The position numbers and the translations under genes were made by a program. A stretch of 45,593 nucleotides of DNA, taken from Nanobdellota archaeon (GTDB taxonomy: Archaea; Nanobdellota; Nanobdellia; Pacearchaeales; GW2011-AR1). How positions within the stretch are numbered: the first letter of the stretch is position 1; every line of letters begins with the position of its first letter. Shown piece by piece: positions 15,305-34,286 of this stretch. The notes beneath the pieces are model-generated. The model saw only the letters and a list, made by a program, of their open reading frames with translations. It did no database searches and had not been told where the DNA came from. The stretch spans positions 1 through 45,593 of the forward strand of contig JBBSXO010000007.1 in NCBI GenBank assembly GCA_038045705.1. Direction: 5' to 3'.

Positions 15305-15894
15305 AAAAATCACATTTATTGATTTTGATATTTAATGCATTATACTTGATTGTTTTTGGAGTCTATTATCTAAGCGTTGAGAACTATGAATTTATGTGGT
15401 ATATTGGAGTTATCATTATTCTTGGAGCAATTATTGGAATAAATTTAAATAAAGTTAAATTTGATAATCTAGTTTTGTGGTTGCTTTCCATTTGGGGTCT
15501 TGCTCATATGGTTGCAGGAGGAATAAAAATTGCAGGAAACACAATTTATTCTATCAGATTAATTGATATAATTGATAAAGGTGGACAATTTTATATTCTG
15601 AAAATGGACCAGTTGATTCATTTTTATGGATTTTTTGTAGCCTCAATACTTGTTTATCAGTTGATTATTGCTACTGGGTCTTATGCTCGCGATTCTCCAA
15701 AGTTAATGATATTCTTAGCTTGGATAGGAAGCATGGGACTAGGTGCTTTAAATGAAGTGGTAGAATTTATTGCATTTATTTCTTTAGATAAAACTGGAGT
15801 TGGTGATGTATATAATACTGGTCTAGATTTGATTTTCAACTTATTTGGAGCACTTATTGGCTCTTTTGTTGCCCATAAACTTTATAAAAAATAA
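15301..15894 (+). CDS. DUF2238/YjdF-like membrane protein
   Basis: TM helices with H..GG, DQLIHF, E..EF, NTGLDL motifs. Confidence 0.75.
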   Translation: MKKSHLLILIFNALYLIVFGVYYLSVENYEFMWYIGVIIILGAIIGINLNKVKFDNLVLWLLSIWGLAHMVAGGIKIAGNTIYSIRLIDIIDKGGQFYILKMDQLIHFYGFFVASILVYQLIIATGSYARDSPKLMIFLAWIGSMGLGALNEVVEFIAFISLDKTGVGDVYNTGLDLIFNLFGALIGSFVAHKLYKK

Positions 15895-15927
15895 AAATAA
15901 ATTTTTTGTTAATTAATTAGAAACTAA

Positions 15928-16161
15928 TTAAGCAGCTTCTCTGTTAAATCCGCCTTCATTTTCACGCTTCTTCTTGAAGCAGTTTAAACACAACACAGGT
16001 CTACCCTCTGTTGGTTTGAAAGGGACTTCACATTCTTGCTTGCATTCTGAACATACAGCTTTGTGCATTTCTCTTGGGCCTGAATTGAATCTTCTCTGCC
16101 CGCCAAAACTGCGTCCGCCACCGAATGATCTTCTTTCTCCGCCGAATGATCTTCTTTCCAT
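15928..16161 (-). CDS. CxxC-x17-CxxC zinc-finger protein with RGG-like N-terminus
   Basis: REMHKAVCSECKQECEVPFKPTEGRPVLCLNC; tandem ERRSFGG repeats. Confidence 0.9.
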   Translation of the reverse strand: MERRSFGGERRSFGGGRSFGGQRRFNSGPREMHKAVCSECKQECEVPFKPTEGRPVLCLNCFKKKRENEGGFNREAA

Positions 16162-16314
16162 TATTCTTGTCCTCCGTTCACTTATTCCGGCTCTCGCCTA
16201 GGAAATGTGATTATTGTGTGTATATAAGTGTATGTTTTTTCTGTTTTGAATAAAATTATTGAAAAAAAACTTAACATAAGGTTTAAAATAGCGTTGAAAT
16301 AGTTTAATTTTGTA

Positions 16315-16398
16315 GCCCAGATCGCATAATGGAATTGCGAAGGATTGCTAATCCTTTTTCGCGCAAGCGATGCCCAGGTTCGATTCCTGGTCTGGGCG
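16315..16398 (+). tRNA. tRNA-Ser(GCT)
   Basis: GCCCAGA/TCTGGGC acceptor stem, AAGGA-TTGCTAA-TCCTT anticodon arm, long variable arm TCGC-GCAA-GCGA, CCAGG-TTCGATT-CCTGG T-arm, G73. Confidence 0.95.
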
Positions 16399-16408
16399 TA
16401 CTTTTTAT
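16395..16408 (+). repeat. Left target-site duplication GGCGTACTTTTTAT (14 bp)
   Basis: Identical to 27713-27726; includes the last 4 nt of tRNA-Ser. Confidence 0.97.
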
Positions 16409-16443
16409 GGGTTATAGATATGTCCGAAAAAGGCAACACTTTT
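16409..16443 (+). repeat. Left terminal inverted repeat (35 bp) GGGTTATAGATATGTCCGAAAAAGGCAACACTTTT
   Basis: Exact reverse complement of 27678-27712. Confidence 0.97.
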
Positions 16444-16467
16444 AAGCTAAAAGTAGTCTAATTTATT

Positions 16468-16971
16468 ATGAATAGAAAAGGAAAATCTACATCAAAACAA
16501 ATATTGACAGGCATTGCAGTTTTTGTTCTTGGTTCTTTAATAATCGGAGCTATTAGTGGATTATTTAGTAGCCCTAAACCAATAAGGATTCTCAACACAG
16601 AGCAAGAAGTTTGTCCGCTTGGAACATGGTTTGATTTCAATGGAGAAGGTTCTTTTAGTATAGAACTAAAAAATGAAGGTTCTACCGGAAATCTTTTTGT
16701 AAATATCTCATCTAATGAATTGCTAGTTAAAAATAAAGAACGAGCAATTTTTTCTAATAGTAGTCTTAATCAGCTAGTCACTTCAGCTGGAGATTCACAA
16801 AGATTTAATTTTGAAACTCTAAGAAAAAATCAAGAGAGTGAGAATATTACAATTAGGGTTGATTATGGTTGCACAAAGCTATTTTGCAAAAAATATTATT
16901 TTTGTTGTGAATATTCTAAAGAGGACAAAGATAATTATAATTTAGTAAGAGAAACAAGTTGTATGAACTAA
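16468..16971 (+). CDS. Casposon cargo: membrane-anchored Cys-rich protein
   Basis: N-terminal TM helix, beta-rich body, six Cys. Confidence 0.7.
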   Translation: MNRKGKSTSKQILTGIAVFVLGSLIIGAISGLFSSPKPIRILNTEQEVCPLGTWFDFNGEGSFSIELKNEGSTGNLFVNISSNELLVKNKERAIFSNSSLNQLVTSAGDSQRFNFETLRKNQESENITIRVDYGCTKLFCKKYYFCCEYSKEDKDNYNLVRETSCMN

Positions 16972-18099
16972 CTATCTCCAATATATCCAATCACTTACTG
17001 CTTCATCTGAAACAACATTATCGCCATAAGCCCTTACATAAATTCTGAATGGTTCGCCTGTTGGAGATTTTAGATTAGTTACTTTGTATTCATAAGATTC
17101 CTCTGGTTCTAAACTAACAAATGAGCTTTCAATAGAATCCCATACCTTGCTTTCATCTTTAGTTTGCAAAGCAACATATATTTTCATATTATCAGCAGTT
17201 TCAGAGCCTAGATTTGTTACAACTGCATTAACATCAGTATAGACGTTCAACCAATTGTATCTATAAGTAGAATCAAAATCTACATCTAAATAAGGTCTTT
17301 CATAAATTGGTGTTACTATAGCACTTTCACCAGCTACATTAGGAGGAACTTGCCCAATATTCCAGTTTTGACCAGTTGTTTCTAAATAACAATATTTTAT
17401 TCCATCTTGAGTATAATATGACTGTCCTGCTAAAGGTGTGCATTTTACGCCAACAGCCATGTGGTCTGAAAATCTAAGCAATGCAACACCATAACCTAAT
17501 TCATGAAGCATTGATGAGGCTAAGATAGCCGTATCTTCACAATCTCCACCATTATCATAAAATGTTTCATATGGAAATCTTGGATACTCATCAAAACCTG
17601 TCGTTACATCATCTGAAGTATAAGGAAGATTTTGAACAAATGAAATTATAAAATAAGGTATCTCGTCTCTACTTAATCCATTATCTAAACCATATTCTTC
17701 AAGAGATTCTGTCAATGATTTAATGAATGGTTTACTATAAGAATCAGAAGCGAATAAATCATATTCTCTTATCCTTTCCCTTTCCTTATAGACTTCATAG
17801 ACTTTAGGATACAAAGTCAAAGTTACACCATAATCATAATCTTGATATCCCCAATCAAACTCTCTGCTAAATTTTCCTTCTTCGTAATCAATTAATTCTT
17901 CTGGCTCTGTAGAACTTAAACTTCTTTCAATTAACTCGTTTTCGTTCTCATTTGGTTCGGTTACATAAACCGCTCCTTCTTGTAAAGTAGTATTTTCTGT
18001 CTGTGGTTCATCTCCACTAGAAAAGAACCAAAATAAGAGTATTAATCCAAATACTATCCACCAATAATTATTTTCTTCTTTTTTATGAGTTTTATCCAT
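16972..18099 (-). CDS. Casposon cargo: membrane-anchored transglutaminase-like cysteine protease with CARDB-like C-terminus
   Basis: FVQNLPY..D, YPRFPYET...GGDCEDTAIL, HMAVG, YLETT; V.N.G...A Ig-like tail. Confidence 0.8.
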   Translation of the reverse strand: MDKTHKKEENNYWWIVFGLILLFWFFSSGDEPQTENTTLQEGAVYVTEPNENENELIERSLSSTEPEELIDYEEGKFSREFDWGYQDYDYGVTLTLYPKVYEVYKERERIREYDLFASDSYSKPFIKSLTESLEEYGLDNGLSRDEIPYFIISFVQNLPYTSDDVTTGFDEYPRFPYETFYDNGGDCEDTAILASSMLHELGYGVALLRFSDHMAVGVKCTPLAGQSYYTQDGIKYCYLETTGQNWNIGQVPPNVAGESAIVTPIYERPYLDVDFDSTYRYNWLNVYTDVNAVVTNLGSETADNMKIYVALQTKDESKVWDSIESSFVSLEPEESYEYKVTNLKSPTGEPFRIYVRAYGDNVVSDEAVSDWIYWR

Positions 18100-18623
18100 T
18101 ATTTCATATACTTTACAAGTAAATCTCTATAAGATAAAACTACATTCTTATCCAGATTCTTGAAGAGAGACATATTCATCAAACTTTTGAAGCTACCGTT
18201 TAAATTGCTACCAAAATTATCCCCATTTAGACTTGCTTCATCATCTAAATTCTTGTATTGTTCTATTCCAATATATTTATTTGTCAATAAAATGATATAA
18301 CAATCTCTGTAAGGATAGTCTGTTTCTTTCTTGTAAATTCCATCAGTTCTATACTTTACTTCTACAAAATTTGCATTTCCTTCTTTATCTACAATAATGA
18401 AATCTGGAGCTTTTCTTATATGATTCTTTACATCTCCTTTAAGCAATCTTTCCTTACGAGCAAGAGTCGGACAAGTATTTTCATAGCCATAAGGAATAAC
18501 TTCAAATCCCAAATCTTCAAACATACACTTAACTATGGCTTCAGCAATCCTTCCTTTAACCATTTCTTCTTGTGCCATATTATTCTTTAAAATAACCCAT
18601 TTATATAATCTTAGATTCAACAA
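18099..18623 (-). CDS. Casposon cargo: PD-(D/E)xK nuclease-family protein (likely start 18578)
   Basis: G..AE, PDFII, FVEVK motifs. Confidence 0.75.
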   Translation of the reverse strand: MLNLRLYKWVILKNNMAQEEMVKGRIAEAIVKCMFEDLGFEVIPYGYENTCPTLARKERLLKGDVKNHIRKAPDFIIVDKEGNANFVEVKYRTDGIYKKETDYPYRDCYIILLTNKYIGIEQYKNLDDEASLNGDNFGSNLNGSFKSLMNMSLFKNLDKNVVLSYRDLLVKYMK

Positions 18624-19015
18624 TTAAGATAGTTTACTTTGTTTCCGATACCGCTCTGCATTACTTCTGGATTATGAACACCATTACAGAGATTAATTAT
18701 ATTGTCAATTCCGCTTAATGAAAGTGAAGATATCTTTGTATTTTTAGTAACGGTCACTTCATTATCTGTTCCACTTACAAGCAAATTAACAACATTAGCA
18801 TTATTTACAGTTTTTACTTCGCCAATTCCACTAATAGATACCGTTTGAGTTTGTCCATTATATTGATTTTCAGCACCATAATTAATGGTTGGAGTATTGG
18901 TATCTGTTCTTTCGTAAGTCCCTATTTTTACTCCAAATCCTATCACAAATAATAGAATTACAACTAAGGCTATCCAAAAGACATTCTTCCAGTCATTTTC
19001 CTTATTTTCTTTCAT
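18617..19015 (-). CDS. Casposon cargo: membrane-anchored beta-solenoid (DUF3060-like) protein
   Basis: TM helix followed by repeated SGxxNxV units. Confidence 0.65.
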   Translation of the reverse strand: MKENKENDWKNVFWIALVVILLFVIGFGVKIGTYERTDTNTPTINYGAENQYNGQTQTVSISGIGEVKTVNNANVVNLLVSGTDNEVTVTKNTKISSLSLSGIDNIINLCNGVHNPEVMQSGIGNKVNYLNC

Positions 19016-19073
19016 ATTATCAGTCCACTAATTAATGGATTGCGTCTTTTAAACCTTACCATCTATTAGTGGA

Positions 19074-19298
19074 ATGAGTAGAAGGAAAGGGTTAGATGTA
19101 AAGAAAAAGATTCTCCAAATCCTAAAAGAAGATGGCGAAACGACATTAGGCGAACTAGAAAGAAAAACAAACACTAATAATATAACAATTTTAAGCCATT
19201 TAGAAGAACTTGAGTATTTCGGAAAGGTGCAAATAATCAAACATCAGAAAAGCGAAAAAACTGGACGACCATATACAACCGTCAAATTGAAGAATTAA
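19074..19298 (+). CDS. Winged-helix DNA-binding protein
   Basis: ILQILK..GETTLGELER...ILSHLEELE..G.V...GRP pattern. Confidence 0.8.
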   Translation: MSRRKGLDVKKKILQILKEDGETTLGELERKTNTNNITILSHLEELEYFGKVQIIKHQKSEKTGRPYTTVKLKN

Positions 19299-20197
19299 CG
19301 TTTAATCTTTTCTTTCTCATTCTTCTCGTAATACTCTTCCAAAATCTTATATCTAGTTTCAACATGGAATCTTTCTATTAATATTCCTACAATTATCATA
19401 CCCATACCAATCCAAGTATTAACATTTTCAAATAAATTACCTGACCCGTATCCAGCTGAAAATACTCCTACTCCTATTGAAATTAAAGATACTGACAAAG
19501 TTTCATATTTTGATAATCTTAGTTTATTGAGTTCTATTTTCTTTTCAGCAATCTTATAATCTTCTTCTCTAAGGTTTATTCGAAGAACCCTTATTAATAT
19601 TATAAAAAGAACCATTGTAAGACCAAAAGACAAAGCGAAACTATATTTTCCATTAAACAAGAAGAATATTAATAAAATAACTGAACTAACAATGACTACC
19701 CATCCCCAAAATCCCAAACTTCCTCTAGATTCTTTCATTTTATTATCTGGGTTAATCAAACCTGTCAACTTTTTAAAGTAATTGGACATATTTCTCAAAA
19801 AGAATATTGTTGCTAAAACTGCGGAGGCTAATATTAGGAAGTTAGTTTTCCAACCAGCTTGTATATATTCAGGGAATGCTACAACTGATTTGATAATTCC
19901 TAAAAGAGATAAAGTTATAAAAATTAAGACTATTGTGGAAGTAGTTATGAAATCAAATATAAATCCCTCATATTTTATCTTAATTCTATTGTTAAATCCA
20001 TAGTTAAGTGCTAATACCAAAAAGTAGACTATATACATCCATAGAAGAAAGTCAAAAAATATATTTGATACAAACTTCAATGAAAGTTTTACATTAATTA
20101 TTTCAAATGTCTCTTCTGTAATAGTTTGCTTGATTCCAAAGAAAATAGCCAGAATGCCAGCCATAATTGTTATCCTAATAGTTTCTTCGTTATTCAT
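19295..20197 (-). CDS. Casposon cargo: polytopic membrane protein
   Basis: About 8 hydrophobic segments; ATGA-coupled to cas1. Confidence 0.7.
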   Translation of the reverse strand: MNNEETIRITIMAGILAIFFGIKQTITEETFEIINVKLSLKFVSNIFFDFLLWMYIVYFLVLALNYGFNNRIKIKYEGFIFDFITTSTIVLIFITLSLLGIIKSVVAFPEYIQAGWKTNFLILASAVLATIFFLRNMSNYFKKLTGLINPDNKMKESRGSLGFWGWVVIVSSVILLIFFLFNGKYSFALSFGLTMVLFIILIRVLRINLREEDYKIAEKKIELNKLRLSKYETLSVSLISIGVGVFSAGYGSGNLFENVNTWIGMGMIIVGILIERFHVETRYKILEEYYEKNEKEKIKR

Positions 20198-21384
20198 TTT
20201 ACTTTCAAGAGTTTTTCCTCAACGCTTTTATTCAAACTAAAGGCTTTATCTTCTTTTACCTTATGCTTTAGGTCATGCAAGGTTGCTTTAGAATATCCTA
20301 AGTCTTTCCACTTCTTGTAAGATACTCCTTTGATTATCTCTCTCACTTCATGAGTATCATCTCTGTTTAAATCAAACAAAGGTTCATGTAATTTACAAGA
20401 ACTAACTTTACCTAAGATGAAATGTGCTAGTTCTCTGGTTTGTTCTACTAAAACATTTCCCCAGCCATATTCTTTACCCTTGAAGTTCACTTTTTTACTA
20501 AACCAAATTTGAATCTCTTCCATTAGCTTCTTAGCTCCAGAAGGTCTTAAACGCAGATTGTAGTTTTCAGTTCTGATAAAATCTTTATCTTGCATCTTCT
20601 TTTTTTCAATAGCGGAAATAACAGCTAAATCAATAAGGAATCTAAAAGGTTCTTGTAAGTCATAAGCTAGACTATTACTTCCCATTTTCATTTCGTGTAA
20701 GAAACCAACATGAGCATCTAAACCAACCATATTGATAGCTCTCAAACATTCTGCTTCGAGTATAGCATACCCATAGTTTAACATGCAATTAATTTTATCA
20801 CTAGCTCCGTAAGGCTTTTTAGCATATTCTCTTCTATCAAATTCATAGCTTTCAGGAATGGTCTTTCTAATCTCTTTCCAATAAAGGATAGCTGTTCTTG
20901 CCTCTGCCCTTATTACTTCTGGAATATTACTGGCATCTTCTAACCTATCTTCTTCTGTTAAGAAGTTATAATTTATTTCTGGATATCTTGATTTAAGCCA
21001 ATCAAGTAATATCTTGGAGCGAGTAACCTTAGCTTCAACGAACTTTTTGGCTATCTCCAATCTTAAACTAGAATCCTTATAAGAGGAATATTGTGCAAAT
21101 TTGGTCTTAACTTGAACACTTTCAGGTGGAAGCATCGTAGTAAGTAACTTTCCATCCCAATTAAGAATAGTAACTGCTACGTTGTGTTTGATAAGCCATC
21201 TAATCGCTTCAAGGCTTATATCTCCAGACCTTCCATAGATTACTACGTTATCATAGGGGATTCTTTTAGGTCTAAAGACATGAAGTTTAGGTTCTTCTGT
21301 TGAATATCTACCTTCTTTAACGTAAAGCCTCGCTTTATCAACTGAAAAGTGTATTCCATGCCCATTAAGTAGAAGAAACCTCAT
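20194..21384 (-). CDS. cas1: Casposase (solo Cas1) with C-terminal HTH
   Basis: G.ISLEAIRWL, AEART (catalytic Glu), NCMLNYGYAIL, GLDAHVGFLHE (His), LAYDLQEPFR (Asp/Glu); extra C-terminal HTH; no cas2 or array. Confidence 0.95.
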   Translation of the reverse strand: MRFLLLNGHGIHFSVDKARLYVKEGRYSTEEPKLHVFRPKRIPYDNVVIYGRSGDISLEAIRWLIKHNVAVTILNWDGKLLTTMLPPESVQVKTKFAQYSSYKDSSLRLEIAKKFVEAKVTRSKILLDWLKSRYPEINYNFLTEEDRLEDASNIPEVIRAEARTAILYWKEIRKTIPESYEFDRREYAKKPYGASDKINCMLNYGYAILEAECLRAINMVGLDAHVGFLHEMKMGSNSLAYDLQEPFRFLIDLAVISAIEKKKMQDKDFIRTENYNLRLRPSGAKKLMEEIQIWFSKKVNFKGKEYGWGNVLVEQTRELAHFILGKVSSCKLHEPLFDLNRDDTHEVREIIKGVSYKKWKDLGYSKATLHDLKHKVKEDKAFSLNKSVEEKLLKVK

Positions 21385-21497
21385 GAAAATTCCCCTAAAG
21401 TGTCAAAAATGTCGAAAGAATGAGACAAATGGAATGAATGAAAAACTCGTTTAAGTGGTTTAACTGCATTATGTTCGTTTTGTTTAGTTTGTTTCAT
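21381..21497 (-). CDS. 38-aa coupling/leader ORF (MKQTKQNEHNAVKPLKRVFHSFHLSHSFDIFDTLGEFS)
   Basis: Starts immediately after the upstream stop (TAA-ATG) and ends in an ATGA overlap with cas1. Confidence 0.45.
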   Translation of the reverse strand: MKQTKQNEHNAVKPLKRVFHSFHLSHSFDIFDTLGEFS

Positions 21498-22169
21498 TTA
21501 ATCCTTTAAAATTTTCAAAATCATGTGGGATGGACTCCCTATCATAAGGTGGTCTCCCATTATGGCTTTTTCAATTGAGTCTGGAATGATAAGACTGGTA
21601 AAAATGAAGTCTCTTTTCATATAATAGACTGAATTTCTATATTCTATATTTTTAGGATTATTCTCAACCTCATCTAAAAATTGCTTTCTAAAGTATTTGT
21701 TCTTCCAAAACTCATTCTTAACAGCTTCGTATCTATCCAAATCTTGTTTTGGATTATAACCATTCAATATAGGTTTAAGCGGATAAATTCTTTTAATGGC
21801 TAAAAACTCTATGATTAAAGATTTTATAGAACCTATAGGGTCTGCCCTTATTGGATTCCAAAAGCGAGACAAAACTAATTCCATAAATTCTCTTTCTTCC
21901 TTGTTGAAGTCTCCAATTAAACTTAACTTTGCTCTAAAGAGTTTCTTATTCCCACTAATAACTGACAAGTCTTTTCTTTCTATCCAATTCATATCATCAA
22001 ATTTTTTCAGCCATTTAAGAATTCCAGACCTTGCATTTCTCTTTCCATAAATTTGTTGTGCTAAATCGGAAGGAGATTGGTCTTCTTTTAGGAGCAATCC
22101 AATCATCTTTTTTGGAACTACTTTCTCCAAAATATCCTTATTTTTAGTCTTTGTATTGATTTTTCTCAT
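21498..22169 (-). CDS. Casposon HTH-domain regulator
   Basis: N-terminal wHTH-like LLLKEDQSPSDLAQQIY...ILKWLKKF..MNWIE. Confidence 0.65.
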   Translation of the reverse strand: MRKINTKTKNKDILEKVVPKKMIGLLLKEDQSPSDLAQQIYGKRNARSGILKWLKKFDDMNWIERKDLSVISGNKKLFRAKLSLIGDFNKEEREFMELVLSRFWNPIRADPIGSIKSLIIEFLAIKRIYPLKPILNGYNPKQDLDRYEAVKNEFWKNKYFRKQFLDEVENNPKNIEYRNSVYYMKRDFIFTSLIIPDSIEKAIMGDHLMIGSPSHMILKILKD

Positions 22170-22249
22170 GTTAATACGATGGTGTGTATTTTATATACAA
22201 GTATACTATTCAGATACCTATATATAAATGTTTCTCTATCATAAAGAAT
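22170..22249. promoter_or_regulatory. Divergent promoter between the cas1 and polB operons
   Basis: 80-bp gap with TATA-like boxes (TTTATATA, TATATAAA) and palindromes AGTATACT and TGTAT-N5-ATACA. Confidence 0.55.
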
Positions 22250-22426
22250 ATGACGATAAATCAACTAAATTGCCAAAGATGTAACCATATTTGGATACCA
22301 AGAATTGAACCTGTAAAAGAGTGTCCGAAATGCAAATCTAGAATTTGGAATAAACCAAAATCTATTTCGGAATTGTTTAAACAAATGTTCGGAGGCTTAA
22401 ATGGTAAAACTAAAAACGTTAGCTAG
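22250..22426 (+). CDS. Small Zn-ribbon protein
   Basis: CQRCNHIW...CPKCKSRIW; ATG at 22250 preferred over GTG at 22184. Confidence 0.8.
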   Translation: MTINQLNCQRCNHIWIPRIEPVKECPKCKSRIWNKPKSISELFKQMFGGLNGKTKNVS

Positions 22427-22910
22427 AGTTGCTTGGGCTAAATTAAGTTCAATACAGAAAAGTCAAAGAAACAAAGCTTTTGAAATTCTAAGGATGATGA
22501 AAAAAGGAGACTCTTTTACTTCAGCTTTGAAAGAAGTAGATATAAGTTCGCTCTTAGCAAAGAAGCATCTGGGTAGAGCTATTTTCAAAAAAGCTGGAAG
22601 ATTCAAAGCCACTAAATCAGATTCTATTCAAAGAAGAATAGAATTTTATAGCAAAACAAAAGGAAGAATCTTCATCACTGTAAGAAATTCTAGAGATGCT
22701 TCTCTAATTGGAGAATACTTCTCTGCTGTAAGAAAAGCAAAACCTACTGGTGAAACTTCTGAATTAGATAGATTCAAAGGAAAAATAGTAATAGATGCTG
22801 ATGGCGAAGCTCATAAATTCGAGACTGACATTGATAAGATTTTTGAAATTGAAGAATCAATAGAAGAACCAGAATTCAGAGATGATATTTATGAAGAGGT
22901 TTCCTTATGA
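22401..22910 (+). CDS. Basic hypothetical protein, probable HTH
   Basis: GGAGG RBS; LRMMKKGDSFTSALKEVDIS helix-turn-helix-like segment. Confidence 0.7.
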   Translation: MVKLKTLARVAWAKLSSIQKSQRNKAFEILRMMKKGDSFTSALKEVDISSLLAKKHLGRAIFKKAGRFKATKSDSIQRRIEFYSKTKGRIFITVRNSRDASLIGEYFSAVRKAKPTGETSELDRFKGKIVIDADGEAHKFETDIDKIFEIEESIEEPEFRDDIYEEVSL

Positions 22911-23263
22911 ATAAAAAAGAAATTTCAGATAAATTCTTTAGCCTTATTAGAAATAAAAAAGAACTAACACCTATGTGCTTTCTTTGTGGAGAAGACAGCG
23001 AGACAGTTCTTAGAAAGTTAGAGGCACATCACGTATTTGGAAAGGCTATTTCCGATGAAATGGTTAACTTGTGTTTGAATTGTCATACAAAGATAACAGA
23101 TAAACAGAATATAGTAAAAACAAAAAACAGAGTGGAGTTTTCTTCAGAAGATGAGAAGCTAGGTTTTCAACTAATATGCTCTGGTAAAATGTTAGAATTA
23201 ATTGGTGAGAGATGGCAAGATATAGGATTCAAATTTATACAAAATGGACAACTTATTTCTTAG
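22907..23263 (+). CDS. HNH endonuclease
   Basis: CFLCGE...LEAHHVFG...LCLNCH. Confidence 0.85.
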   Translation: MNKKEISDKFFSLIRNKKELTPMCFLCGEDSETVLRKLEAHHVFGKAISDEMVNLCLNCHTKITDKQNIVKTKNRVEFSSEDEKLGFQLICSGKMLELIGERWQDIGFKFIQNGQLIS

Positions 23264-25835
23264 AACTTATACGAGATTGAAAAAGAAGAAAAAGAAGAAA
23301 GAGTTTCACAAACCAGATTTTTATCAAGACAAAGCAGTTTTTGTGTTTGATACTGAAACAACTACAGACTTCAAAATGGGATTAAAAGTTGGTTATTTTC
23401 AATTATATATTAATAATTTATTAATTCACCAAGGTCTATTTTACAAAGAAGCAACAAATGAAGAAATAAAAATAATATATAGATATGCTAAAAGAAACAA
23501 TATTAAGGTCTATAAGGTAGAAGATTTTAGAAAATATGTCTTTTATCCAGTTGTTTTTAACTTTAGAGCTTTATGTTTAGCATATAATCTTCCCTTTGAT
23601 ATACCTAGAATATCCATTAGACACACACAAGCCAAAAAGAAAGAAAGTGGAGGTTTTTCATTTATTTTATCTGAAAATAGTGCTTTACCTAGAATTGTTT
23701 CTAAACAACTTAACTCTGAAACTACTACGGTTAGATTCTCACAAAGCCTATACAATAAACATTTCTTTAATGGAAACTTTCTTGATGTGCAAAAATTAGC
23801 TTGTGTTTTACTTGAAAGAAAGAAGATTAGTTTAGAAGAAGCTTGTGAAGTTCTAAAAACAAAGACCAGAAAGAAAGAAACGGATAAGCATGGAAAGATA
23901 ACTTTTGAATATTTAGATTATTTAATTAAGGACGTTAGAGCTACTTATGAAGTTTATCTAAAATTAAAAGAAAGATTTGAAAGTTATCAAATCAATATTC
24001 CATTAACTGATATATTTTCTTCAGCATCTTTGGGTAAAAATGCATTAAAACAAATGGGGATTAGTTCGTTTCATGAGCAAAATCCAGATTTCAAGTTTGA
24101 AATTTTGGGTAATGTAATGATTTGCTATTATGGTGGAAGAGTTGAGGTTTTAATGCGAAAAGAACCAGTGAAGGTATCTGTTCTTGACTTTACCTCTATG
24201 TATCCAACAATTACTTTGCTAATTGGTCTTTGGGATTTTATTATTGCAGATAGAATAGAATATCAATATTGCACTTCAGAAATTATAGAATTATTAAAAA
24301 AGATAACATTAGAAGACCTAAGAAATCCTGAAACATGGAAAAAACTAGCTGTAATTGTTAAAATAAAGCCAAATGCCGAAGAACTTCCCGTAAGAAGTAT
24401 CTACAATTCAGAATCAAAAACACACTCAATTGCAATAAATAAACTAACTTTCAATGGAGAGATTTTTTATTCATTAGCAGACATTATTAGACATAAGCTA
24501 CAAACTGGTAACTTTCCAGAGATTATCGAAGCAATTAAATTTGTGCCACTTGGTAAACAGCAAACTTTACAAAAAACACAAATTCTTGGAACGGAATTTA
24601 ATCCATCAGAAGAAAACTTTATTAAGAAATTAGTTGAAGAGAGATATAAAATAAAAGAAAGTAATCCAGAAAAAGCAGATTCTCTAAAAATAATAGCTAA
24701 TTCAACTACTTACGGAATATTCATACAACTTGACCCAGAGGATGAAGAAAAAGAATTGGATGTTTATGGAATTGAGAAATTTAGTTCAAAGTCCATTTTT
24801 GAAAAAGAAGGAGAATATTACAATCCTATAATTGCTGTATCTATAACTGCTGGAGCTAGATTATTATTGACTATGGCTGAATTGTTTCTTCAGTCCAGAG
24901 GCTATAAACATTATTACATGGACACAGATAGTATATTTGTTCCACCAGAAGTCGCAGATGAATTAAGCGATTTCTTTCAAACTCTCAATCCTTATGATTT
25001 GGGCATTAGAGTTTTAAAAATTGAAAAAAGAGACAAATGGCTTTATGCTATAGCCTCTAAGCGTTATGTTTTATATGATTTAGTTAATGGAAAGATAGTA
25101 ATTGACCCAGACCCTCAAAAGAAAGAGTATAAATTACACGGTCTTGGACATATAACTAATCCATTTGGAAAAGATGAAAAGTATTGGCACTATAAAATAT
25201 GGGAAGACATACTCAAATTACATTATGGACAAATTACTTATAAAGACTTATTTGAAAAATATTCAAAAATGTTTGTAGTTAGTAAAATGTCAATTACAAA
25301 TTGGAAAATTATGAATTTGTTCAAGAATGTAAATGGTGCTACACCATATAATTTCTACCTTAGAGGGATTGGACGTAAACTAAAGGATAAGGTGATTAAA
25401 CCTATTGCTCCATATACTAAAGATTATCAGAGTGTTGTTTATGAGCCTTTCATTAATTTAGAAAATGGAGAAGTTATGCAAGGAGAAGAAAATTGGAAAA
25501 CTTTGTATAACCAAATAATTGACTATATCAACCATCCAGAATCTAAGTTTGATGGTGATATTGGTTTATTGAAACGCAAACATGTAAGACCAAAAGAGAT
25601 TGTATGGATTGGGAAAGAATCAAACAAGATAAATGAAGATTTGACTGAAGAAATCAAAGCTACCACATACAAGGATATTGGCAAAGATAGGAAAATTATT
25701 CTAAATATGAGTAATCAAGAAGCTGAAAAGAGAGATGTTTCAAGACCTACTTTATGGAAAATTCAGAAAAGACTTAGAAAGAACCCTAAGAAGTTTAATT
25801 GGAAGACTAGGTCTGTTAAGAGGTTAATCACATAA
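23244..25835 (+). CDS. polB: Casposon family-B DNA polymerase
   Basis: Exo I FDTET, Exo II YNLPFD, Exo III YLIKDV, YYGGR, motif A DFTSMYP, motif B KIIANSTTYG, motif C YMDTDS; C-terminal HTH-like tail. Confidence 0.95.
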   Translation: MDNLFLRTYTRLKKKKKKKEFHKPDFYQDKAVFVFDTETTTDFKMGLKVGYFQLYINNLLIHQGLFYKEATNEEIKIIYRYAKRNNIKVYKVEDFRKYVFYPVVFNFRALCLAYNLPFDIPRISIRHTQAKKKESGGFSFILSENSALPRIVSKQLNSETTTVRFSQSLYNKHFFNGNFLDVQKLACVLLERKKISLEEACEVLKTKTRKKETDKHGKITFEYLDYLIKDVRATYEVYLKLKERFESYQINIPLTDIFSSASLGKNALKQMGISSFHEQNPDFKFEILGNVMICYYGGRVEVLMRKEPVKVSVLDFTSMYPTITLLIGLWDFIIADRIEYQYCTSEIIELLKKITLEDLRNPETWKKLAVIVKIKPNAEELPVRSIYNSESKTHSIAINKLTFNGEIFYSLADIIRHKLQTGNFPEIIEAIKFVPLGKQQTLQKTQILGTEFNPSEENFIKKLVEERYKIKESNPEKADSLKIIANSTTYGIFIQLDPEDEEKELDVYGIEKFSSKSIFEKEGEYYNPIIAVSITAGARLLLTMAELFLQSRGYKHYYMDTDSIFVPPEVADELSDFFQTLNPYDLGIRVLKIEKRDKWLYAIASKRYVLYDLVNGKIVIDPDPQKKEYKLHGLGHITNPFGKDEKYWHYKIWEDILKLHYGQITYKDLFEKYSKMFVVSKMSITNWKIMNLFKNVNGATPYNFYLRGIGRKLKDKVIKPIAPYTKDYQSVVYEPFINLENGEVMQGEENWKTLYNQIIDYINHPESKFDGDIGLLKRKHVRPKEIVWIGKESNKINEDLTEEIKATTYKDIGKDRKIILNMSNQEAEKRDVSRPTLWKIQKRLRKNPKKFNWKTRSVKRLIT

Positions 25836-25867
25836 ATTCTTATATATCTATAAAAATAATCATTTTC

Positions 25868-26053
25868 ATGACTGAAGCAACAAAAAAGAAATCTGAAAAG
25901 GATTTGTCCATGTCTGGACAAAGAGATGAATCTCAAATAATGAAATATTTGGTAGGAGTTCCAGAGTCTTTATCTGGCAAAAAGAAACAGCCTGTAGCTG
26001 ACACATCACAAGGTTCTGAAAATCCAAAAGATATCCCTACAGACCAAGATTAA
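25868..26053 (+). CDS. Small hydrophilic hypothetical protein
   Basis: 61-aa ORF with TATA-like box upstream; overlaps the next gene convergently. Confidence 0.5.
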   Translation: MTEATKKKSEKDLSMSGQRDESQIMKYLVGVPESLSGKKKQPVADTSQGSENPKDIPTDQD

Positions 26054-26559
26054 AGAGAGTATATCCCAAAAATTTCTGAAGTATTAAATTGTATGGTCTT
26101 CCAATCAAGTTCTATTTCTTTGTTATTTTTATCTACCTCGATAATTTTATTTGAAGAATTACCTTTAATAGTAATGAAATAAGGATTTGATGAAGAAATA
26201 ACTGCCTTAAACCTCTTCCCATTCTTCAATTTAATCAAAAACCATTTATCTTTTTGTTCAGTAGTTCTTGAAAGTAACGCCCATATCCAAAGAGCTATGA
26301 CTAAAATAAATGTCAGCCAAAAATAAAAAACCCAAAAATTCCATTCTAGCCTATTTTGAAAGTATAATGATAAGAGGGTAATAAAACCACCACTTACAAA
26401 GAGGAATAAAGCTAATTCCCATTTTTCTTGAAACTTGTCAAATTTTGTAAATCTTTCAAGGAAGTAAAAGACAATATAGGGGAGACCAAGCAAAATAAGA
26501 ATATGCAATAAAGTTATTTCTGTAAATCTAACATCTAAAAAATCTGGTGAGATAACCAT
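26050..26559 (-). CDS. Casposon cargo: 3-TM protein with small beta-barrel (Sm-like) C-terminus
   Basis: Three TM helices followed by IKLKNGKRFKAVI. Confidence 0.65.
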   Translation of the reverse strand: MVISPDFLDVRFTEITLLHILILLGLPYIVFYFLERFTKFDKFQEKWELALFLFVSGGFITLLSLYFQNRLEWNFWVFYFWLTFILVIALWIWALLSRTTEQKDKWFLIKLKNGKRFKAVISSSNPYFITIKGNSSNKIIEVDKNNKEIELDWKTIQFNTSEIFGIYSL

Positions 26560-26610
26560 AAAAATGATTCAAAAAACTCTTATTTAAGGATATGTGGAAT
26601 AGAAAAAGAG

Positions 26611-27636
26611 TTATTTTGATAACGACTTCAAAGCATCCTCTGAATTTGAGTAAACATTCAGAAGGGCATTATCTTTGCTGATTCTATTAAATTCCCTAAC
26701 ATATTCCTCATCAGCTACAAAAACTTCTTCTTCTGGGCATAATTCAATCAGAATTTTTGGGTGAATTGGGAGATAAACTCTTATCTCTTTTCTATCTCCG
26801 TAATCCCAATACATTATTACTATGCCTGTGTCTGTCAATACAAATGGGGTTGCAGTATGATTCACAACAAACCTTATCTTGTTTTTATCAAGTCCTCTTC
26901 CTTTTAGGAATCTATCTGTTAAGTTAGCATCTATTATTTCTGAAGAATGCTTATCTGGGTGAGTGCGGATAAAATCTAAGTCGGTTTCCACTTTATTTAT
27001 TTCGGATTCAAGAAGGCTTTTAGTTTCATCAGAGTTCCTCATTTCAGTCAGCAAGTTAGGATTCTTTTTTATTTTTCTTTTCCAGTTCATTTCTATTTTC
27101 CTTCTAGCCTTACTGTTCAGTCCAACACCTCTTTCTCTAATAATTTTCTTGATATCTGGCTCTCTTGCATGCTCTTTATCCATAATTATCTTTTCAATAT
27201 TCTCTGGTAGTCTAAGAGACACTTCATGGACTTGCTTTCCAATTTCTTTAAATTTAACAGTCCTTACATGCTGTATTTCTATGTATTTCTTGACAAAATC
27301 TGATTCTTCTGGTGAAAGCTTAACATCTTTTCCATCAAGTATTGGTTGGATAACCTTCCCTATAATAGATGCCATTGGATGCTCTACATTTACGCTTAGG
27401 TTTTCCTCTAAAGTTTTTTCTAGATTCTTAAACAAAGGATTGACCTTTATGTGTTTAAAAGTTGCTTTCAATTCTCCTAAAGATTTATTGCTATAAAAGT
27501 TTCCTTCTTGAAGCTGATAGTAATGGGGAATGGAATTTGAGACACTATTGCTTTTCTTGCTGTAGAAAGAAATCTTTCCATTTGGGTCAGCAAATCTCTT
27601 TATTATTAATCGTGGAACAAAATGGTGTTTCGTCAT
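26611..27636 (-). CDS. DUF4238-family protein
   Basis: N-terminal HHFVPR..I..F, QHVRT, FVLTD, YLPIHPK motifs. Confidence 0.8.
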   Translation of the reverse strand: MTKHHFVPRLIIKRFADPNGKISFYSKKSNSVSNSIPHYYQLQEGNFYSNKSLGELKATFKHIKVNPLFKNLEKTLEENLSVNVEHPMASIIGKVIQPILDGKDVKLSPEESDFVKKYIEIQHVRTVKFKEIGKQVHEVSLRLPENIEKIIMDKEHAREPDIKKIIRERGVGLNSKARRKIEMNWKRKIKKNPNLLTEMRNSDETKSLLESEINKVETDLDFIRTHPDKHSSEIIDANLTDRFLKGRGLDKNKIRFVVNHTATPFVLTDTGIVIMYWDYGDRKEIRVYLPIHPKILIELCPEEEVFVADEEYVREFNRISKDNALLNVYSNSEDALKSLSK

Positions 27637-27677
27637 AAAATCAAGCCATCTAGAACCTATTTATGAATTATGGTCTC

Positions 27678-27712
27678 AAAAGTGTTGCCTTTTTCGGACA
27701 TATCTATAACCC
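27678..27712 (-). repeat. Right terminal inverted repeat (35 bp)
   Basis: AAAAGTGTTGCCTTTTTCGGACATATCTATAACCC. Confidence 0.97.
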
Positions 27713-27726
27713 GGCGTACTTTTTAT
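27713..27726 (+). repeat. Right target-site duplication
   Basis: GGCGTACTTTTTAT, identical to 16395-16408. Confidence 0.97.
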
Positions 27727-27801
27727 TGACAACAAAAATGAGATTTTGAAAAACAGGGCGTTGAACTATTTTTACATTGTTTTGAAGATGTTGTACTAAA
27801 C

Positions 27802-27843
27802 TTGTACATAAAACCGCCCAAGAATATACCAAAATGGTCTCAT
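27802..27843 (+). repeat. Intergenic repeat, copy A
   Basis: 39/42 identical to 29883-29924. Confidence 0.85.
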
Positions 27844-27918
27844 TGCTGACTAGACTTTCTACCCCTACATTTGTTATATAAAACAAACATTTATAGATAT
27901 GTAGTGTCAAGATAATAC

Positions 27919-28809
27919 ATGGTGAATATAAGAGAAAAGAAGACTGGGAAGCAAACATATTATTATCTTGAACATAGTATGAGGGAAGGTAGTAAAATCA
28001 TTAAGAAAGAAAAATATCTTGGAAAAGAGATACCTAAGGAGATTGACAAGATAAAAAGAGCGTTTGTTATAGAGTCATACAAAGAAAAATGGTTTAATGA
28101 TTTTGAAAAAATAAAAAATAATTACTCCAAAGAGCAAAAGATAATGCCTCCTTCTTCCAAGGCTAAGCAGAAACAGACGTTTGCAGTAAAATTTACCTAT
28201 AACACTCAAAAAATAGAAGGTTCTTCTTTGAGTTTAAAAGATACTTCCAACCTAATTGAAAAAGGAATAACTCCTTCGGAAAAACCAATAAGTGATGTTA
28301 TTGAAGCAGAAGAACACAATAAAGTATTTTATGAAATGCTATCTTATGAAAAAGAATTATCTTTACAGATTGTACTTTATTGGCACAAAAAACTATTTGA
28401 GAAAACTAAGCCAGATGTAGCTGGAAAAGTTAGAAATCATCAAGTAGGCATTTCTTTAAGTAAATATACTCCCCCTATGCCCTCAGAATTGGATTTTTTA
28501 ATAAAAGATTTTTTTGATTGGTACAATAAAAGCAAAAATAAGTTAAATCCTGTAGAATTGGCTGCTCTAGTGCATTTAAAATGGGTAACCATTCATCCTT
28601 TTGGAGATGGCAATGGAAGAATTTCAAGATTAATGATGAATTTTGTTTTGCATAAGAATGGATACCCTATGTTAGACATACCTTACACAAAAAGAAATAG
28701 CTATTATACATCTCTTGAAAGAAGCCAAGTTAAGAAAGATGACTCCCCTTTTCTTAATTGGTTTTTTAAGAGATATATTAAAAATTGCGAAGGTTATTCT
28801 AAGTCGTAA
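27919..28809 (+). CDS. Fic-family protein
   Basis: Canonical HPFGDGNGRISR motif; YNTQKIEGS inhibitory-helix-like motif. Confidence 0.93.
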   Translation: MVNIREKKTGKQTYYYLEHSMREGSKIIKKEKYLGKEIPKEIDKIKRAFVIESYKEKWFNDFEKIKNNYSKEQKIMPPSSKAKQKQTFAVKFTYNTQKIEGSSLSLKDTSNLIEKGITPSEKPISDVIEAEEHNKVFYEMLSYEKELSLQIVLYWHKKLFEKTKPDVAGKVRNHQVGISLSKYTPPMPSELDFLIKDFFDWYNKSKNKLNPVELAALVHLKWVTIHPFGDGNGRISRLMMNFVLHKNGYPMLDIPYTKRNSYYTSLERSQVKKDDSPFLNWFFKRYIKNCEGYSKS

Positions 28810-28926
28810 TATACTCCTCAATAAATCGCAAATTTGCACCTATCACCTTGACCTCGACAAGACTTTTAAACTCTTTAATCCTTGAAGAATTAGATATTCC
28901 GTGAAGGAATCATAAAATAAATATTT

Positions 28927-28974
28927 ACACGCCCATGAGGATAACACAAACATGGACTGCTTGGTCTGGGAGTA
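28927..28974 (+). repeat. Intergenic repeat, degenerate copy B
   Basis: CGCCCA...TGCTTGGTCTGGGAGTA; shares 12-bp TGCTTGGTCTGG with 29924-29935; 12/13 match to the tRNA-Ser 3' end. Confidence 0.6.
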
Positions 28975-29007
28975 AATTTACGAACCAGAAAAATAATTTA
29001 TATAGTC

Positions 29008-29892: not shown

Positions 29893-29940
29893 AACCGCCC
29901 GAGAATATATCAAAATGGTCTCATGCTTGGTCTGGCGTTC
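29883..29940 (+). repeat. Intergenic repeat, copy C
   Basis: Matches copy A in its 5' part, and copy B plus the tRNA 3' end in its 3' part. Confidence 0.85.
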
Positions 29941-34256: not shown

Positions 34257-34286
34257 AGATAGATTTATTAATAAGCTATCTCTCTT

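What the first reader, a model, noticed from the sequence alone, without database searches (positions are those of the whole stretch)
16395..27726. Complete, apparently recent casposon in a DPANN-like archaeon, targeting tRNA-Ser(GCT)
Seen: perfect 35-bp TIRs, a perfect 14-bp TSD, intact Cas1 and PolB catalytic motifs, HNH and HTH genes, and no cas2 or array. Established: family-2 casposons have Cas1-HTH, PolB and HNH, make 14-15-bp TSDs and target tRNA genes (tRNA-Pro in Aciduliprofundum, tRNA-Leu in Methanosarcina). Inference: a tRNA-Ser-targeting element in a reduced DPANN-type host may be a new lineage with new target specificity. The unmutated ends suggest recent or ongoing mobility. The TSD takes only the last 4 nt of the tRNA, so the tRNA stays intact.
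Basis: partly seen in the sequence, partly recalled or inferred. Interest (0 to 1): 0.92.

Follow-up and report, generated by a model that had tools for sequence, protein, structure and literature searches.

The report
Intact casposon beside tRNA-Ser, DPANN archaeon
This is an intact self-replicating transposon of the casposon type (the relatives of the CRISPR integrase Cas1) inserted just behind a serine tRNA gene in a tiny-genome DPANN archaeon; it is a new member of a well-studied family rather than a new kind of element.

Summary
An 11,304-bp element (16409-27712) has 38-nt terminal inverted repeats, the outer 35 perfect. It is flanked by a perfect 14-bp target duplication whose first 4 nt are the last 4 nt of tRNA-Ser(GCT).

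It encodes a Cas1-HTH casposase (E 5e-143 to the solved M. mazei casposase), a divergent family B polymerase, an HNH protein and the conserved 169-aa family-2 protein, in the same order as Methanosarcina casposons. The genome holds no cas2 and no array.

The host is a 0.84-Mb Woesearchaeota/Nanoarchaeota-type DPANN genome.

The layout (14-bp duplication, 4-nt overlap with the tRNA, GGGTTATAG terminus) matches published M. mazei family-2 casposons. Only the tRNA differs.

Five related DPANN elements also sit 10 nt behind tRNAs ending GGCG: one tRNA-Ser(GCT), one tRNA-Ser(TGA)-like, three truncated. So tRNA-Ser targeting looks like a clade trait.

The element is patchy: 2 of 17 genomes in the genus, 3 of 401 in the phylum sample, and absent from this site in 8 of 8 congeners. 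That fits recent mobility.

Cas1 and PolB trees disagree, which indicates module exchange. One family-2 core gene (HTH-HEAT) is replaced.

Verdict: new member of a known kind. I found no printed description of DPANN casposons.

The parts
16315..16398 (+). tRNA-Ser(GCT), the integration target. It is the only Ser(GCT) gene among the 33 tRNAs found in the assembly.
16395..16408 (.). [quoted passage not shown] The first 4 nt are the tRNA's 3' end.
16409..16446 (+). Left terminal inverted repeat. It starts GGGTTATAG, as in Methanomicrobiales and Forterrea casposon loci.
16468..16971 (+). Cargo ORF, 167 aa, hydrophobic N-terminal stretch, no family match.
   Evidence: 0 related loci
16972..18099 (-). 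Cargo ORF, 375 aa, no family match.
18099..18623 (-). Cargo ORF, 174 aa. Only a weak match to the Shedu SduA (DUF4263) nuclease motif region, E 0.0047.
18617..19015 (-). Cargo ORF, 132 aa, DUF3060 (23.2 bits, cut-off 23.1).
19049..19240 (-). Small ORF, 63 aa. A homologue lies about 0.9 kb downstream of cas1 in L003 and about 0.7 kb downstream in L005, on the cas1 strand, as here.
19295..20197 (-). ORF, 300 aa, many hydrophobic stretches (membrane protein by reading). Its start overlaps the cas1 stop.
20194..21384 (-). Casposase: Cas1 with a C-terminal HTH domain, 396 aa.
21498..22169 (-). ORF, 223 aa, in the position of the family-2 HTH-HEAT gene but not detectably related to it. Shared only with L003 and L004.
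22184..22426 (+). ORF, 80 aa, with two CxxC pairs (zinc-ribbon-like). Homologues in L003 and L004, and weaker tblastn matches in three Thermoplasmata loci (L060, L062, L063).
22401..22910 (+). Conserved 169-aa family-2 casposon protein (the 'HTH protein' by position). Found in 44 related loci.
22907..23263 (+). HNH endonuclease candidate, 118 aa.
23244..25835 (+). Family B DNA polymerase of the casposon type, 863 aa, with a C-terminal HTH like that of Cas1.
25868..26053 (+). Small ORF, 61 aa, no relatives in the loci held.
26050..26559 (-). Cargo ORF, 169 aa, hydrophobic, no solid family match.
26611..27636 (-). Cargo ORF, 341 aa, DUF4238 (E 2.6e-25).
27675..27712 (-). Right terminal inverted repeat.
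27713..27726 (.). [quoted passage not shown]

Best explanation
The stretch 16395-27726 is an intact casposon of family 2: a self-synthesising DNA transposon whose transposase is a Cas1 homologue. It is integrated directly behind the tRNA-Ser(GCT) gene of a small-genome DPANN archaeon of the Woesearchaeota/Nanoarchaeota type.

Inferred mechanism, by analogy with the M. mazei and A. boonei enzymes: a casposase tetramer holds the 3'-CCC ends of the two inverted repeats. It reads about 30 bp of the tRNA gene's 3' part, possibly through its C-terminal HTH. It joins one end at the boundary 4 nt before the tRNA's end and the other end 14 bp away on the opposite strand. Gap filling then gives the 14-bp duplication, which rebuilds the tRNA's last 4 nt, so this tRNA gene stays whole. 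It is the only Ser(GCT) gene found in the assembly. The element's own family B polymerase copies the element. The HNH protein and small DNA-binding proteins probably assist with end processing or targeting.

Shown here: the anatomy, the homologies, the conserved catalytic residues, the target geometry, and the patchy distribution.

Inferred: that the enzyme is active, that the tRNA's 3' part is what it recognises, and that the insertion is recent and the element may still move.
For: 1. Ends. TIR and TSD are as described. The first 9 nt of the TIR (GGGTTATAG) are identical to those in loci L014, L015 and L053 (Methanomicrobiales) and L044 (Forterrea).
2. Casposase. E 5.4e-143 over residues 1-393 to PDB 6opm, against 3.1e-34 for the best CRISPR Cas1. 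E161/H230/E245 are invariant.
3. Family-2 hallmark. The C-termini of Cas1 (340-393) and PolB (808-862) align with each other by hhalign at probability 91.9%, E 6.8e-7.
4. Gene order. cas1 runs one way and the 169-aa gene, HNH and polB run the other way, as in Methanosarcina loci. tblastn matches in the loci then held: Cas1 in 74, the 169-aa protein in 44, HNH in 31, PolB in 46.
5. PolB. A profile of 14 casposon PolBs hits archaeal family B polymerases (P. abyssi, 1.2e-7), with three stretches that I read as motifs A, B and C aligned.
6. Same geometry in relatives. L002, L003, L004, L005 and L110 all show a tRNA ending GGCG, then 10 nt, then a GGG(T/A)(T/A)ATA terminus. L004 carries a 14-bp TSD at both ends.
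7. Published match. M. mazei has a 14-bp TSD whose first 4 bp are the last 4 bp of tRNA-Leu, TSD+30 bp is needed as target, and the HTH is essential (PMC6977970, passages). In vivo movement is shown (PMC10359463, abstract).
8. Host. The genome is 844 kb at 91.5% completeness. The nearest named PurA homologues are Pacearchaeota and Nanoarchaeota. A same-genus genome is a record titled Candidatus Woesearchaeota.
9. Recency. 8 of 8 same-genus genomes with an assembled tRNA-Ser(GCT) show no casposon end behind it. A casposase is present in 2 of 17 genomes of the genus and 3 of 401 of the phylum sample, both counts including the window's own genome. All core ORFs are open.
10. Composition. Element GC is 0.309 against 0.332 for the flanks.
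Against: No exact empty-site homologue exists in relatives. The sequence downstream of tRNA-Ser(GCT) differs in every congener, so absence there shows lineage-specific insertion but not its date. Two of the eight had only about 40 nt of downstream sequence before the contig end.

One of the five family-2 core genes (HTH-HEAT) is missing. It is replaced by an unrelated 223-aa gene.

The window's own HNH and PolB proteins get no Pfam hit at E <= 0.01. Their assignment rests on motifs, relatives and profiles.

The 169-aa protein's HTH is only weakly suggested: no PDB fold match at E <= 0.001.

The Cas1 tree used the quick method and had no CRISPR Cas1 or reference family 1, 3 or 4 rows.
Confidence: 0.88

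Rival explanations
1. It is a fixed, no longer mobile casposon relic, inherited vertically and kept by chance or domesticated. The perfect ends would only reflect a moderately recent insertion that has since gone silent.
For: The assembly holds only one copy and no second casposase. No excised or empty form was seen. One core gene (HTH-HEAT) is missing. The PolB sits on a long branch of 0.74.
Against: All core ORFs are open with catalytic residues intact. The TSD is perfect and 35 of 35 outer TIR bases match. The element is absent from the same site in 8 of 8 congeners and from 15 of 16 other genomes of the genus, so it is not an old vertical trait. A related MAG carries two copies with identical TIR starts at two different tRNA genes (L003 and L004).
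Confidence: 0.25
2. It is a remnant of a CRISPR-Cas adaptation module (a stray cas1), not a transposon.
For: Pfam and NCBIfam name the protein CRISPR-associated Cas1.
Against: No Cas2 was found and no array. All subtype-specific NCBIfam models score far below their cut-offs. The best solved relative is a casposase at 480 bits, against 122 bits for a CRISPR Cas1. The element has TIRs, a TSD, and PolB and HNH next to cas1.
Confidence: 0.01
3. The contig is a chimera. The casposon would belong to a methanogen in the same sample and was joined to DPANN flanks by the assembler.
For: Casposase and PolB have many Methanosarcinales relatives at 45-57% identity. Inverted repeats can confuse assemblers.
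Against: Element GC equals that of the flanks (0.309 against 0.332) and is lower than the Methanosarcinaceae and Methanomicrobiales loci measured (0.37-0.55). The duplication is exactly the tRNA's own 3' end on both sides. The nearest Cas1 relatives are all in DPANN MAG records with the same tRNA-GGCG geometry.
Confidence: 0.03

Closest known systems
Family-2 casposons of Methanosarcina mazei (MetMaz1FA1A3-C2 type; casposase structure PDB 6opm)
   Same: Both have a Cas1-HTH casposase, full length, E 5e-143. Both have a PolB with a similar C-terminal HTH, an HNH gene and the conserved 169-aa gene, in the same divergent gene order. Both have a 14-bp TSD whose first 4 nt are the last 4 nt of a class-II tRNA gene, followed by AT-rich sequence, and a TIR starting GGG.ATA (PMC4779613 passages).
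   Different: The target is tRNA-Ser (TSD starts GGCG), not tRNA-Leu (CGCA). The host is a DPANN archaeon, not a methanogen. The HTH-HEAT core gene is replaced by an unrelated 223-aa gene. PolB is only 45-46% identical by tblastn (up to 48% in trimmed alignments) and sits on its own branch. All cargo genes differ.
Unannotated casposons in Woesearchaeota/Nanoarchaeota MAG records (loci L002, L003, L004, L005, L006, L007)
   Same: Cas1 is 61-80% identical, and together they form a starred 7-row clade. In L002-L005 the element sits 10 nt behind a tRNA ending GGCG: Ser(GCT) in L005 and Ser(TGA)-like in L002. The 223-aa and zinc-ribbon genes are shared with L003 and L004.
   Different: PolB is only 38-43% identical, and the AU test rejects a joint PolB clade with L004 and L007 at p 0.001. 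TIR sequences differ beyond the first bases. L002 keeps the HTH-HEAT gene. None of these elements is described in a paper that I could find.
Aciduliprofundum boonei casposon AciBoo-C1 (family 2, tRNA-Pro)
   Same: Insertion at the 3' end of a tRNA gene with a short TSD. Per the review passages read, the enzyme recognises a segment of the tRNA gene upstream of the TSD and the terminal nucleotides of the TIR (PMC9939771).
   Different: The tRNA is different. The Thermoplasmata loci used as outgroup are only 34% identical in Cas1.
CRISPR-Cas adaptation module (Cas1-Cas2)
   Same: A homologous Cas1 fold and catalytic residues. Integration at a defined site next to a 'leader-like' sequence, with duplication of the target (PMC6977970).
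   Different: No Cas2, no array and no other cas genes were found. What is integrated is the element itself.

Membership tests
Casposon family 2 | Cas1 homologue of the casposase clade, not a CRISPR Cas1 | tested here: met
   480 bits to the M. mazei casposase 6opm against 122 bits to the best CRISPR Cas1. It lies in a starred clade with DPANN casposases beside the Methanosarcinales/Methanomicrobiales clade. No reference family 1, 3 or 4 or CRISPR rows were in the tree.
Casposon family 2 | C-terminal HTH domain fused to Cas1 | tested here: met
   The alignment to 6opm runs to residue 393 of 396. Conserved C-terminal columns are seen in 22 casposases.
Casposon family 2 | PolB of the non-protein-primed casposon type, with a similar HTH at its C-terminus | tested here: met
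   38-46% identical to the PolBs of 46 casposon loci. The profile hits archaeal family B polymerases. hhalign of Cas1 340-393 against PolB 808-862 gives probability 91.9%. Priming mode was not tested.
Casposon family 2 | HNH endonuclease gene | tested here: met
   Homologues in 31 loci at the same position. Invariant Cys, His and Asn residues. 9 of 13 homologues match PF01844, weakly (best E 0.0012); the window's own protein does not.
Casposon family 2 | Conserved small HTH protein (first of two) | tested here: inconclusive
   The 169-aa protein has homologues in 44 loci, so the gene is present. The model has pLDDT 88.5, but no PDB match reaches E <= 0.001, and there are only weak winged-helix-like matches to the N-terminal 60 residues.
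Casposon family 2 | HTH protein with C-terminal HEAT repeats (second of two) | tested here: not met
   The 223-aa ORF at that position shows no significant likeness: BLASTP E 0.069 and hhalign probability 2%. The HTH-HEAT-position gene of L035 has homologues in 28 loci, including L002. The literature says 'most' family-2 elements share the five genes (PMC4046053).
Casposon family 2 | Terminal inverted repeats and a target site duplication | tested here: met
   38-nt TIR and 14-bp TSD.
Casposon family 2 | Insertion at the 3' end of a tRNA gene, overlapping 4-7 nt and leaving the gene whole | tested here: met
   4-nt overlap. Published feature: PMC4046053 and PMC6977970.
Casposon family 2 | Casposase-dependent integration and excision | not testable with these tools
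Casposon family 1 | Protein-primed PolB and a Cas1 without HTH (as summarised in PMC4046053 and PMC8464041) | tested here: not met
   Cas1 has the HTH. PolB groups with family-2-type PolBs.
CRISPR-Cas adaptation module | cas2 and a CRISPR array with cas1 | tested here: not met
   0 Cas2 matches in the 91.5%-complete genome. No spaced repeats and no tandem arrays in the window.

The most novel reading that the evidence does not exclude
This element belongs to a so far undescribed, currently active sub-lineage of family-2 casposons that lives in DPANN archaea and has been retargeted to tRNA-Ser genes. It also swaps whole modules (PolB-HNH against Cas1-HTH) with casposons of methanogens. Casposons would then be a vehicle of DNA traffic between DPANN cells and their presumed methanogen partners. 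The natural series of targets (Ser, Thr, Gln, Arg, Leu, Pro) would show how a Cas1-type integrase is reprogrammed to a new site.
Probability: 0.3. Interest if true: 0.6.

Novelty: new member of a known kind. Interest (0 to 1): 0.4.

Why it matters
Casposons are the presumed ancestors of the CRISPR spacer-integration machinery, and only three casposases have been studied at the bench (PMC9939771).

This element and its relatives extend the family to DPANN archaea, whose genomes are otherwise strongly reduced. They also add tRNA-Ser to the list of targets with unchanged geometry.

That gives a clean natural experiment: the enzyme scaffold, the 14-bp spacing and the TIR terminus stay the same while the tRNA differs. 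It can be used to find which part of the casposase reads the target; the C-terminal HTH is the published suspect.

The disagreement between the Cas1 and PolB histories shows that casposons evolve by module exchange. The gain is incremental, not a new principle.

Tried and rejected
Read-level test for empty sites or excised forms. The look-up of sequencing runs listed 8 runs from 2 studies holding 51-100% of the sampled words of 15800-25799. Nothing was laid, so there is no read evidence for or against.

The review PMC5665730 is not held. Supplementary tables were closed, so tRNA-Ser may already be listed among the 'different tRNA genes' of Krupovic 2014 (Additional file 1: Table S1) or in the 2016 supplementary files. 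I could not see them.

Pairwise tests of the Cas1 and PolB C-termini failed: BLASTP gave no alignment, and a local alignment scored no better than 188 of 2000 shuffles. Only the profile comparison showed the likeness.

The structure model of the 223-aa protein was too poor to use (pLDDT 45).

The fold search of the 169-aa model gave no significant match.

PADLOC and PHROGs gave nothing solid for the cargo genes.

A possible second casposon end behind tRNA-Ser(TGA) on contig C1 has no partner repeat, no second TSD and no casposon genes within 20-25 kb. It is left as a note.

An exact empty-site homologue in congeners was sought with a 16.8-kb DNA query and 14 fetched stretches. The left flank is syntenic in many, but the right flank (Fic gene) lies on other contigs, so no precise empty site could be shown. 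In 2 of the 10 stretches fetched for the tRNA (G012:C16 and G016:C4), ARAGORN called no tRNA; they are not counted.

The TIR pattern scan of viral contigs found nothing.

Rows dropped from trees. For Cas1, 24 of 74 loci were dropped (under 90% coverage in one HSP, or with stops). For PolB, loci whose match is split or short were dropped, among them L002, L003, L039 and L044.

The AU test group was named after the tree had been seen.

Full report
**Observation**

ARAGORN and Rfam place a tRNA-Ser(GCT) at 16315-16398 on the + strand. Reading the sequence, the 14 bases GGCGTACTTTTTAT occur at 16395-16408 and again at 27713-27726. The first four are the last four of the tRNA: three acceptor-stem bases plus the discriminator G.

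Directly inside these copies lie inverted repeats, 16409-16446 and 27675-27712. They are 38 nt with one mismatch, and the outer 35 nt are perfect. Among the 25 longest inverted pairs listed for that 13-kb region, three others reach 35 nt in length and are only 71-74% complementary. This repeat is therefore not a chance match.

The element is 11,304 bp from repeat to repeat.

**Genes**

The 396-aa ORF at 20194-21384 (-) matches Pfam Cas_Cas1 at 7.8e-61.
- Among solved structures its best match is 6opm, the M. mazei casposase, over residues 1-393 (E 5.4e-143, 480 bits). The best CRISPR Cas1 reaches only 122 bits.
- All subtype-specific NCBIfam Cas1 models fall far below their cut-offs.
- E161, H230 and E245 are invariant among 22 aligned casposases. 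By the alignment I equate them with the published active site E162/H232/E247 (PMC6977970, passages read).

The 863-aa ORF at 23244-25835 (+) has no Pfam hit of its own.
- It is 38-46% identical over its full length to the polymerase genes of 46 casposon loci.
- A profile of 14 of them hits archaeal family B polymerases (Pyrococcus abyssi, 1.2e-7) in three stretches that I read as motifs A, B and C.
- The residues that I assign to the exonuclease and polymerase motifs are invariant.
- Many relatives carry precomputed PF00136 or PF03175.

The 118-aa ORF at 22907-23263 has homologues at the same position in 31 loci. It has invariant CxxC..HH..CxNCH..N residues. Nine of 13 homologues match Pfam HNH weakly; the window's own protein does not.

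The 169-aa ORF at 22401-22910 is the conserved small family-2 protein, found in 44 loci. Its model is confident (pLDDT 88.5). The fold search gave no significant PDB match, only weak winged-helix-like hits to the N-terminal third.

The gene order matches the Methanosarcina loci: cas1 leftwards, and the 169-aa gene, HNH and polB rightwards.

A profile comparison aligns the C-terminus of Cas1 (340-393) with the C-terminus of PolB (808-862) at probability 91.9%, E 6.8e-7. This is the family-2 hallmark described by Krupovic et al. 2014 (PMC4046053, passages).

**What is missing or different**

The family-2 HTH-HEAT gene, taken as the L035 gene just upstream of cas1, has homologues in 28 of the loci I held, including the nearest relative L002. 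It is not detectable here. The 223-aa ORF at that position (21498-22169) gives BLASTP E 0.069 and hhalign probability 2% against it. That ORF is shared only with L003 and L004.

The remaining ORFs on both arms have no counterpart in any related locus and no solid family assignment. The exceptions are DUF4238, DUF3060 at the cut-off, and a weak Shedu-nuclease-like motif.

No Cas2 was found in the genome. No CRISPR-like spaced repeats were found there, and there is no array in the window.

**Host**

The window is a whole contig of an 844-kb assembly in 10 contigs, 91.5% complete.

A flanking housekeeping gene (adenylosuccinate synthetase, 10733-12031) has as nearest named relatives Pacearchaeota (60%) and Nanoarchaeota/Woesearchaeota MAG proteins.

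A genome of the same genus (G003) is the same record as the one titled Candidatus Woesearchaeota that holds locus L002. Relatives have 0.5-1.1-Mb genomes.

The 'DPANN-like' call is therefore supported. Element and flanks have the same GC content, 0.309 and 0.332.

**Relatives and target**

A scan of one genome per species found 99 relatives of the casposase; 74 loci were kept. In a quick maximum-likelihood tree of 51 full-length rows (24 loci dropped for partial or interrupted matches):
- The window pairs with L002 (SH-aLRT 99).
- It then joins L003 and L004 (100).
- It lies in a 7-row clade made only of Woesearchaeota- and Nanoarchaeota-titled records plus the window (99).
- That clade lies in a less well supported DPANN-rich group, next to the Methanomicrobiales/Methanosarcinaceae clade that holds the classical family-2 elements.

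The ends of these relatives show the same design:
- L002: a tRNA-Ser(TGA)-like 3' part ending GGCG, 10 nt, then GGGTATATTATAAG, with the 14-bp duplication at both ends.
- L004: the same at both ends of a 10.3-kb contig.
- L003: the same repeat behind a different tRNA in the same MAG.
- L005: a complete tRNA-Ser(GCT), 10 nt, then GGGATATATACATGG.
- L110, from the metagenome scan: a tRNA ending GGGGGCG, 10 nt, then the repeat.

In the window's genome all four tRNA-Ser genes end in GGCG and all three tRNA-Leu genes end in GCA. In L003 and L004 the retained part ahead of the T arm looks to me like the long extra arm of a class-II tRNA (Ser or Leu). On these grounds I read the truncated targets as tRNA-Ser. 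This is an inference.

More distant relatives use tRNA-Thr (L044), tRNA-Gln (L008, L042), tRNA-Arg (L041) and tRNA-Leu (L011). The spacing is the same 10 nt, except 9 nt in L041.

Published M. mazei elements have a 14-bp duplication whose first 4 bp (CGCA) are the last 4 bp of tRNA-Leu, followed by AT-rich sequence (PMC4779613; PMC6977970).

The present element therefore works on the published plan with another tRNA. The retargeting to tRNA-Ser is a trait of its small clade, not of this copy alone.

**Recency and mobility**

Three sets of observations argue against an old, vertically kept element and for recent insertion:
- The duplication is perfect, the outer 35 repeat bases are perfect, and all core ORFs are open.
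- In the 16 other genomes of the genus, only G003 has a casposase (2 of 17 with the window's own). G003's copy sits at another tRNA-Ser with a different repeat. In a sample of 401 genomes of the phylum, 3 have one, the window's own included.
- Behind the tRNA-Ser(GCT) of 8 of 8 congeners in which ARAGORN found that gene, there is no casposon end. Ten stretches were fetched for this and two gave no tRNA call. Two of the eight had only about 40 nt downstream before the contig end.

In a related MAG, two copies with identical repeat starts and near-identical Cas1 (end branches 0.03) sit at two different tRNA genes (L003 and L004).

Ongoing activity is not shown. The read test could not be run.

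**Mosaic history**

Cas1 is 80% identical to L002 and 70% to L004, but PolB is only 41% and 43% identical to theirs. It is 45-46% identical to Methanosarcinaceae PolBs.

In the PolB tree (36 rows) the window stands alone on a long branch of 0.74. A branch with 97% support separates it from the L004/L007 group. An AU test rejects a clade of window+L004+L007 (p 0.001). The group was named after seeing the tree, and long branches are in play.

In the protein database the closest PolBs (55-58%) are unnamed. Contig lengths suggest the following pairings, which are coincidences of listed contig lengths, not verified:

| Cas1 identity to window | PolB identity to window | Shared listed contig length |
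|---|---|---|
| 86% | 42% | 44,822 nt |
| 69% | 56% | 9,103 nt |
| 64% | 57% | 30,896 nt |

I read this as exchange of the polymerase module between casposon lineages.

Four loci titled 'uncultured Methanosarcinales' (L008, L009, L016, L019) have DPANN-like GC content of 0.31-0.36. Three of them (L008, L009, L016) lie in the DPANN-rich group of the Cas1 tree; L019 was not in that tree. Whether this reflects transfer between DPANN and methanogens or wrong binning cannot be told here.

**Literature**

Searches joining 'casposon' with DPANN, Woesearchaeota, Nanoarchaeota, Forterrea, Pacearchaeota, Micrarchaeota, tRNA-Ser, MAGs or symbiont found no paper that describes a casposon in a DPANN host or a family-2 element at tRNA-Ser (passages checked).
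- In one search, none of the 20 rows shown (of 362 papers) contains 'casposon'.
- The two papers with 'tRNA-Ser' are about Thaumarchaeota; I saw only the listing.
- The 2023 review states that family 2 is found in euryarchaeal genomes (PMC9939771, passages).
- The library lacks most subscription papers and the 2017 review.
- Supplements were closed, so a prior listing cannot be excluded.

**Verdict**

This is a real, complete, well-preserved family-2-type casposon in a DPANN archaeon, integrated at tRNA-Ser(GCT). It is a new member of a known kind: an undescribed DPANN, tRNA-Ser-targeting sub-lineage with a replaced accessory gene and a swapped polymerase.

Noticed in passing
G000 contig C1, about 96820-96850 (outside the window): Ten nt behind the tRNA-Ser(TGA) of the same genome stands GGGCATATTATATTAC. 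It resembles the start of the L002 casposon repeat at the exact spacing a casposon end would have, so it may be a solo-TIR remnant. No partner repeat, second duplication or casposon gene lies within 20-25 kb.
   Followed up: partly
window 27779-27848: A stretch of about 70 nt upstream of the Fic gene recurs at 85-93% identity in at least three same-genus genomes (G003, G007, G004). In G007 it lies 271 nt behind a tRNA-Ser(GGA). In G003 a tRNA-Ser(GGA) is followed by a Fic-like match. So Fic-type genes seem to sit next to tRNA-Ser genes repeatedly.
   Followed up: partly
window 27919-45592: Right of the casposon lies a run of defence-like or variable genes. These are Fic/SoFic-like (27919-28809), patatin (31069-32031), Schlafen AlbA_2 (38167-39303), and a giant ORF of more than 2085 aa that runs off the contig (39338-45592).
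   Followed up: no
L003 and L004 (two contigs of one MAG): Two casposon copies with identical repeat starts and near-identical Cas1 sit behind two different tRNA genes ending GGCG. This is a sign of transposition within that genome.
   Followed up: partly
L008, L009, L016, L019: Casposon loci in bins titled 'uncultured Methanosarcinales' have GC content of 0.31-0.36, like the DPANN loci. L008, L009 and L016 lie in the DPANN-rich group of the Cas1 tree; L019 was not in that tree. This is either wrong binning or transfer between DPANN and methanogens.
   Followed up: no
L110:1030-1111: A 1.1-kb low-coverage metagenome contig with a related casposon end also carries, about 1 kb inside and in an unexpected orientation, a fragment like the C-terminal part of the window's PolB. 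It may be a rearranged or misassembled copy.
   Followed up: no
L002:5250-7843: The PolB of the nearest Cas1 relative matches in two pieces with a small gap between them, so that gene may be interrupted.
   Followed up: no
L035:3383-4981: The Methanosarcina sp. casposon locus used for comparison carries a reverse-transcriptase gene (RVT_1, 8.8e-15) as cargo, as noted in the 2016 paper's figure legend.
   Followed up: no
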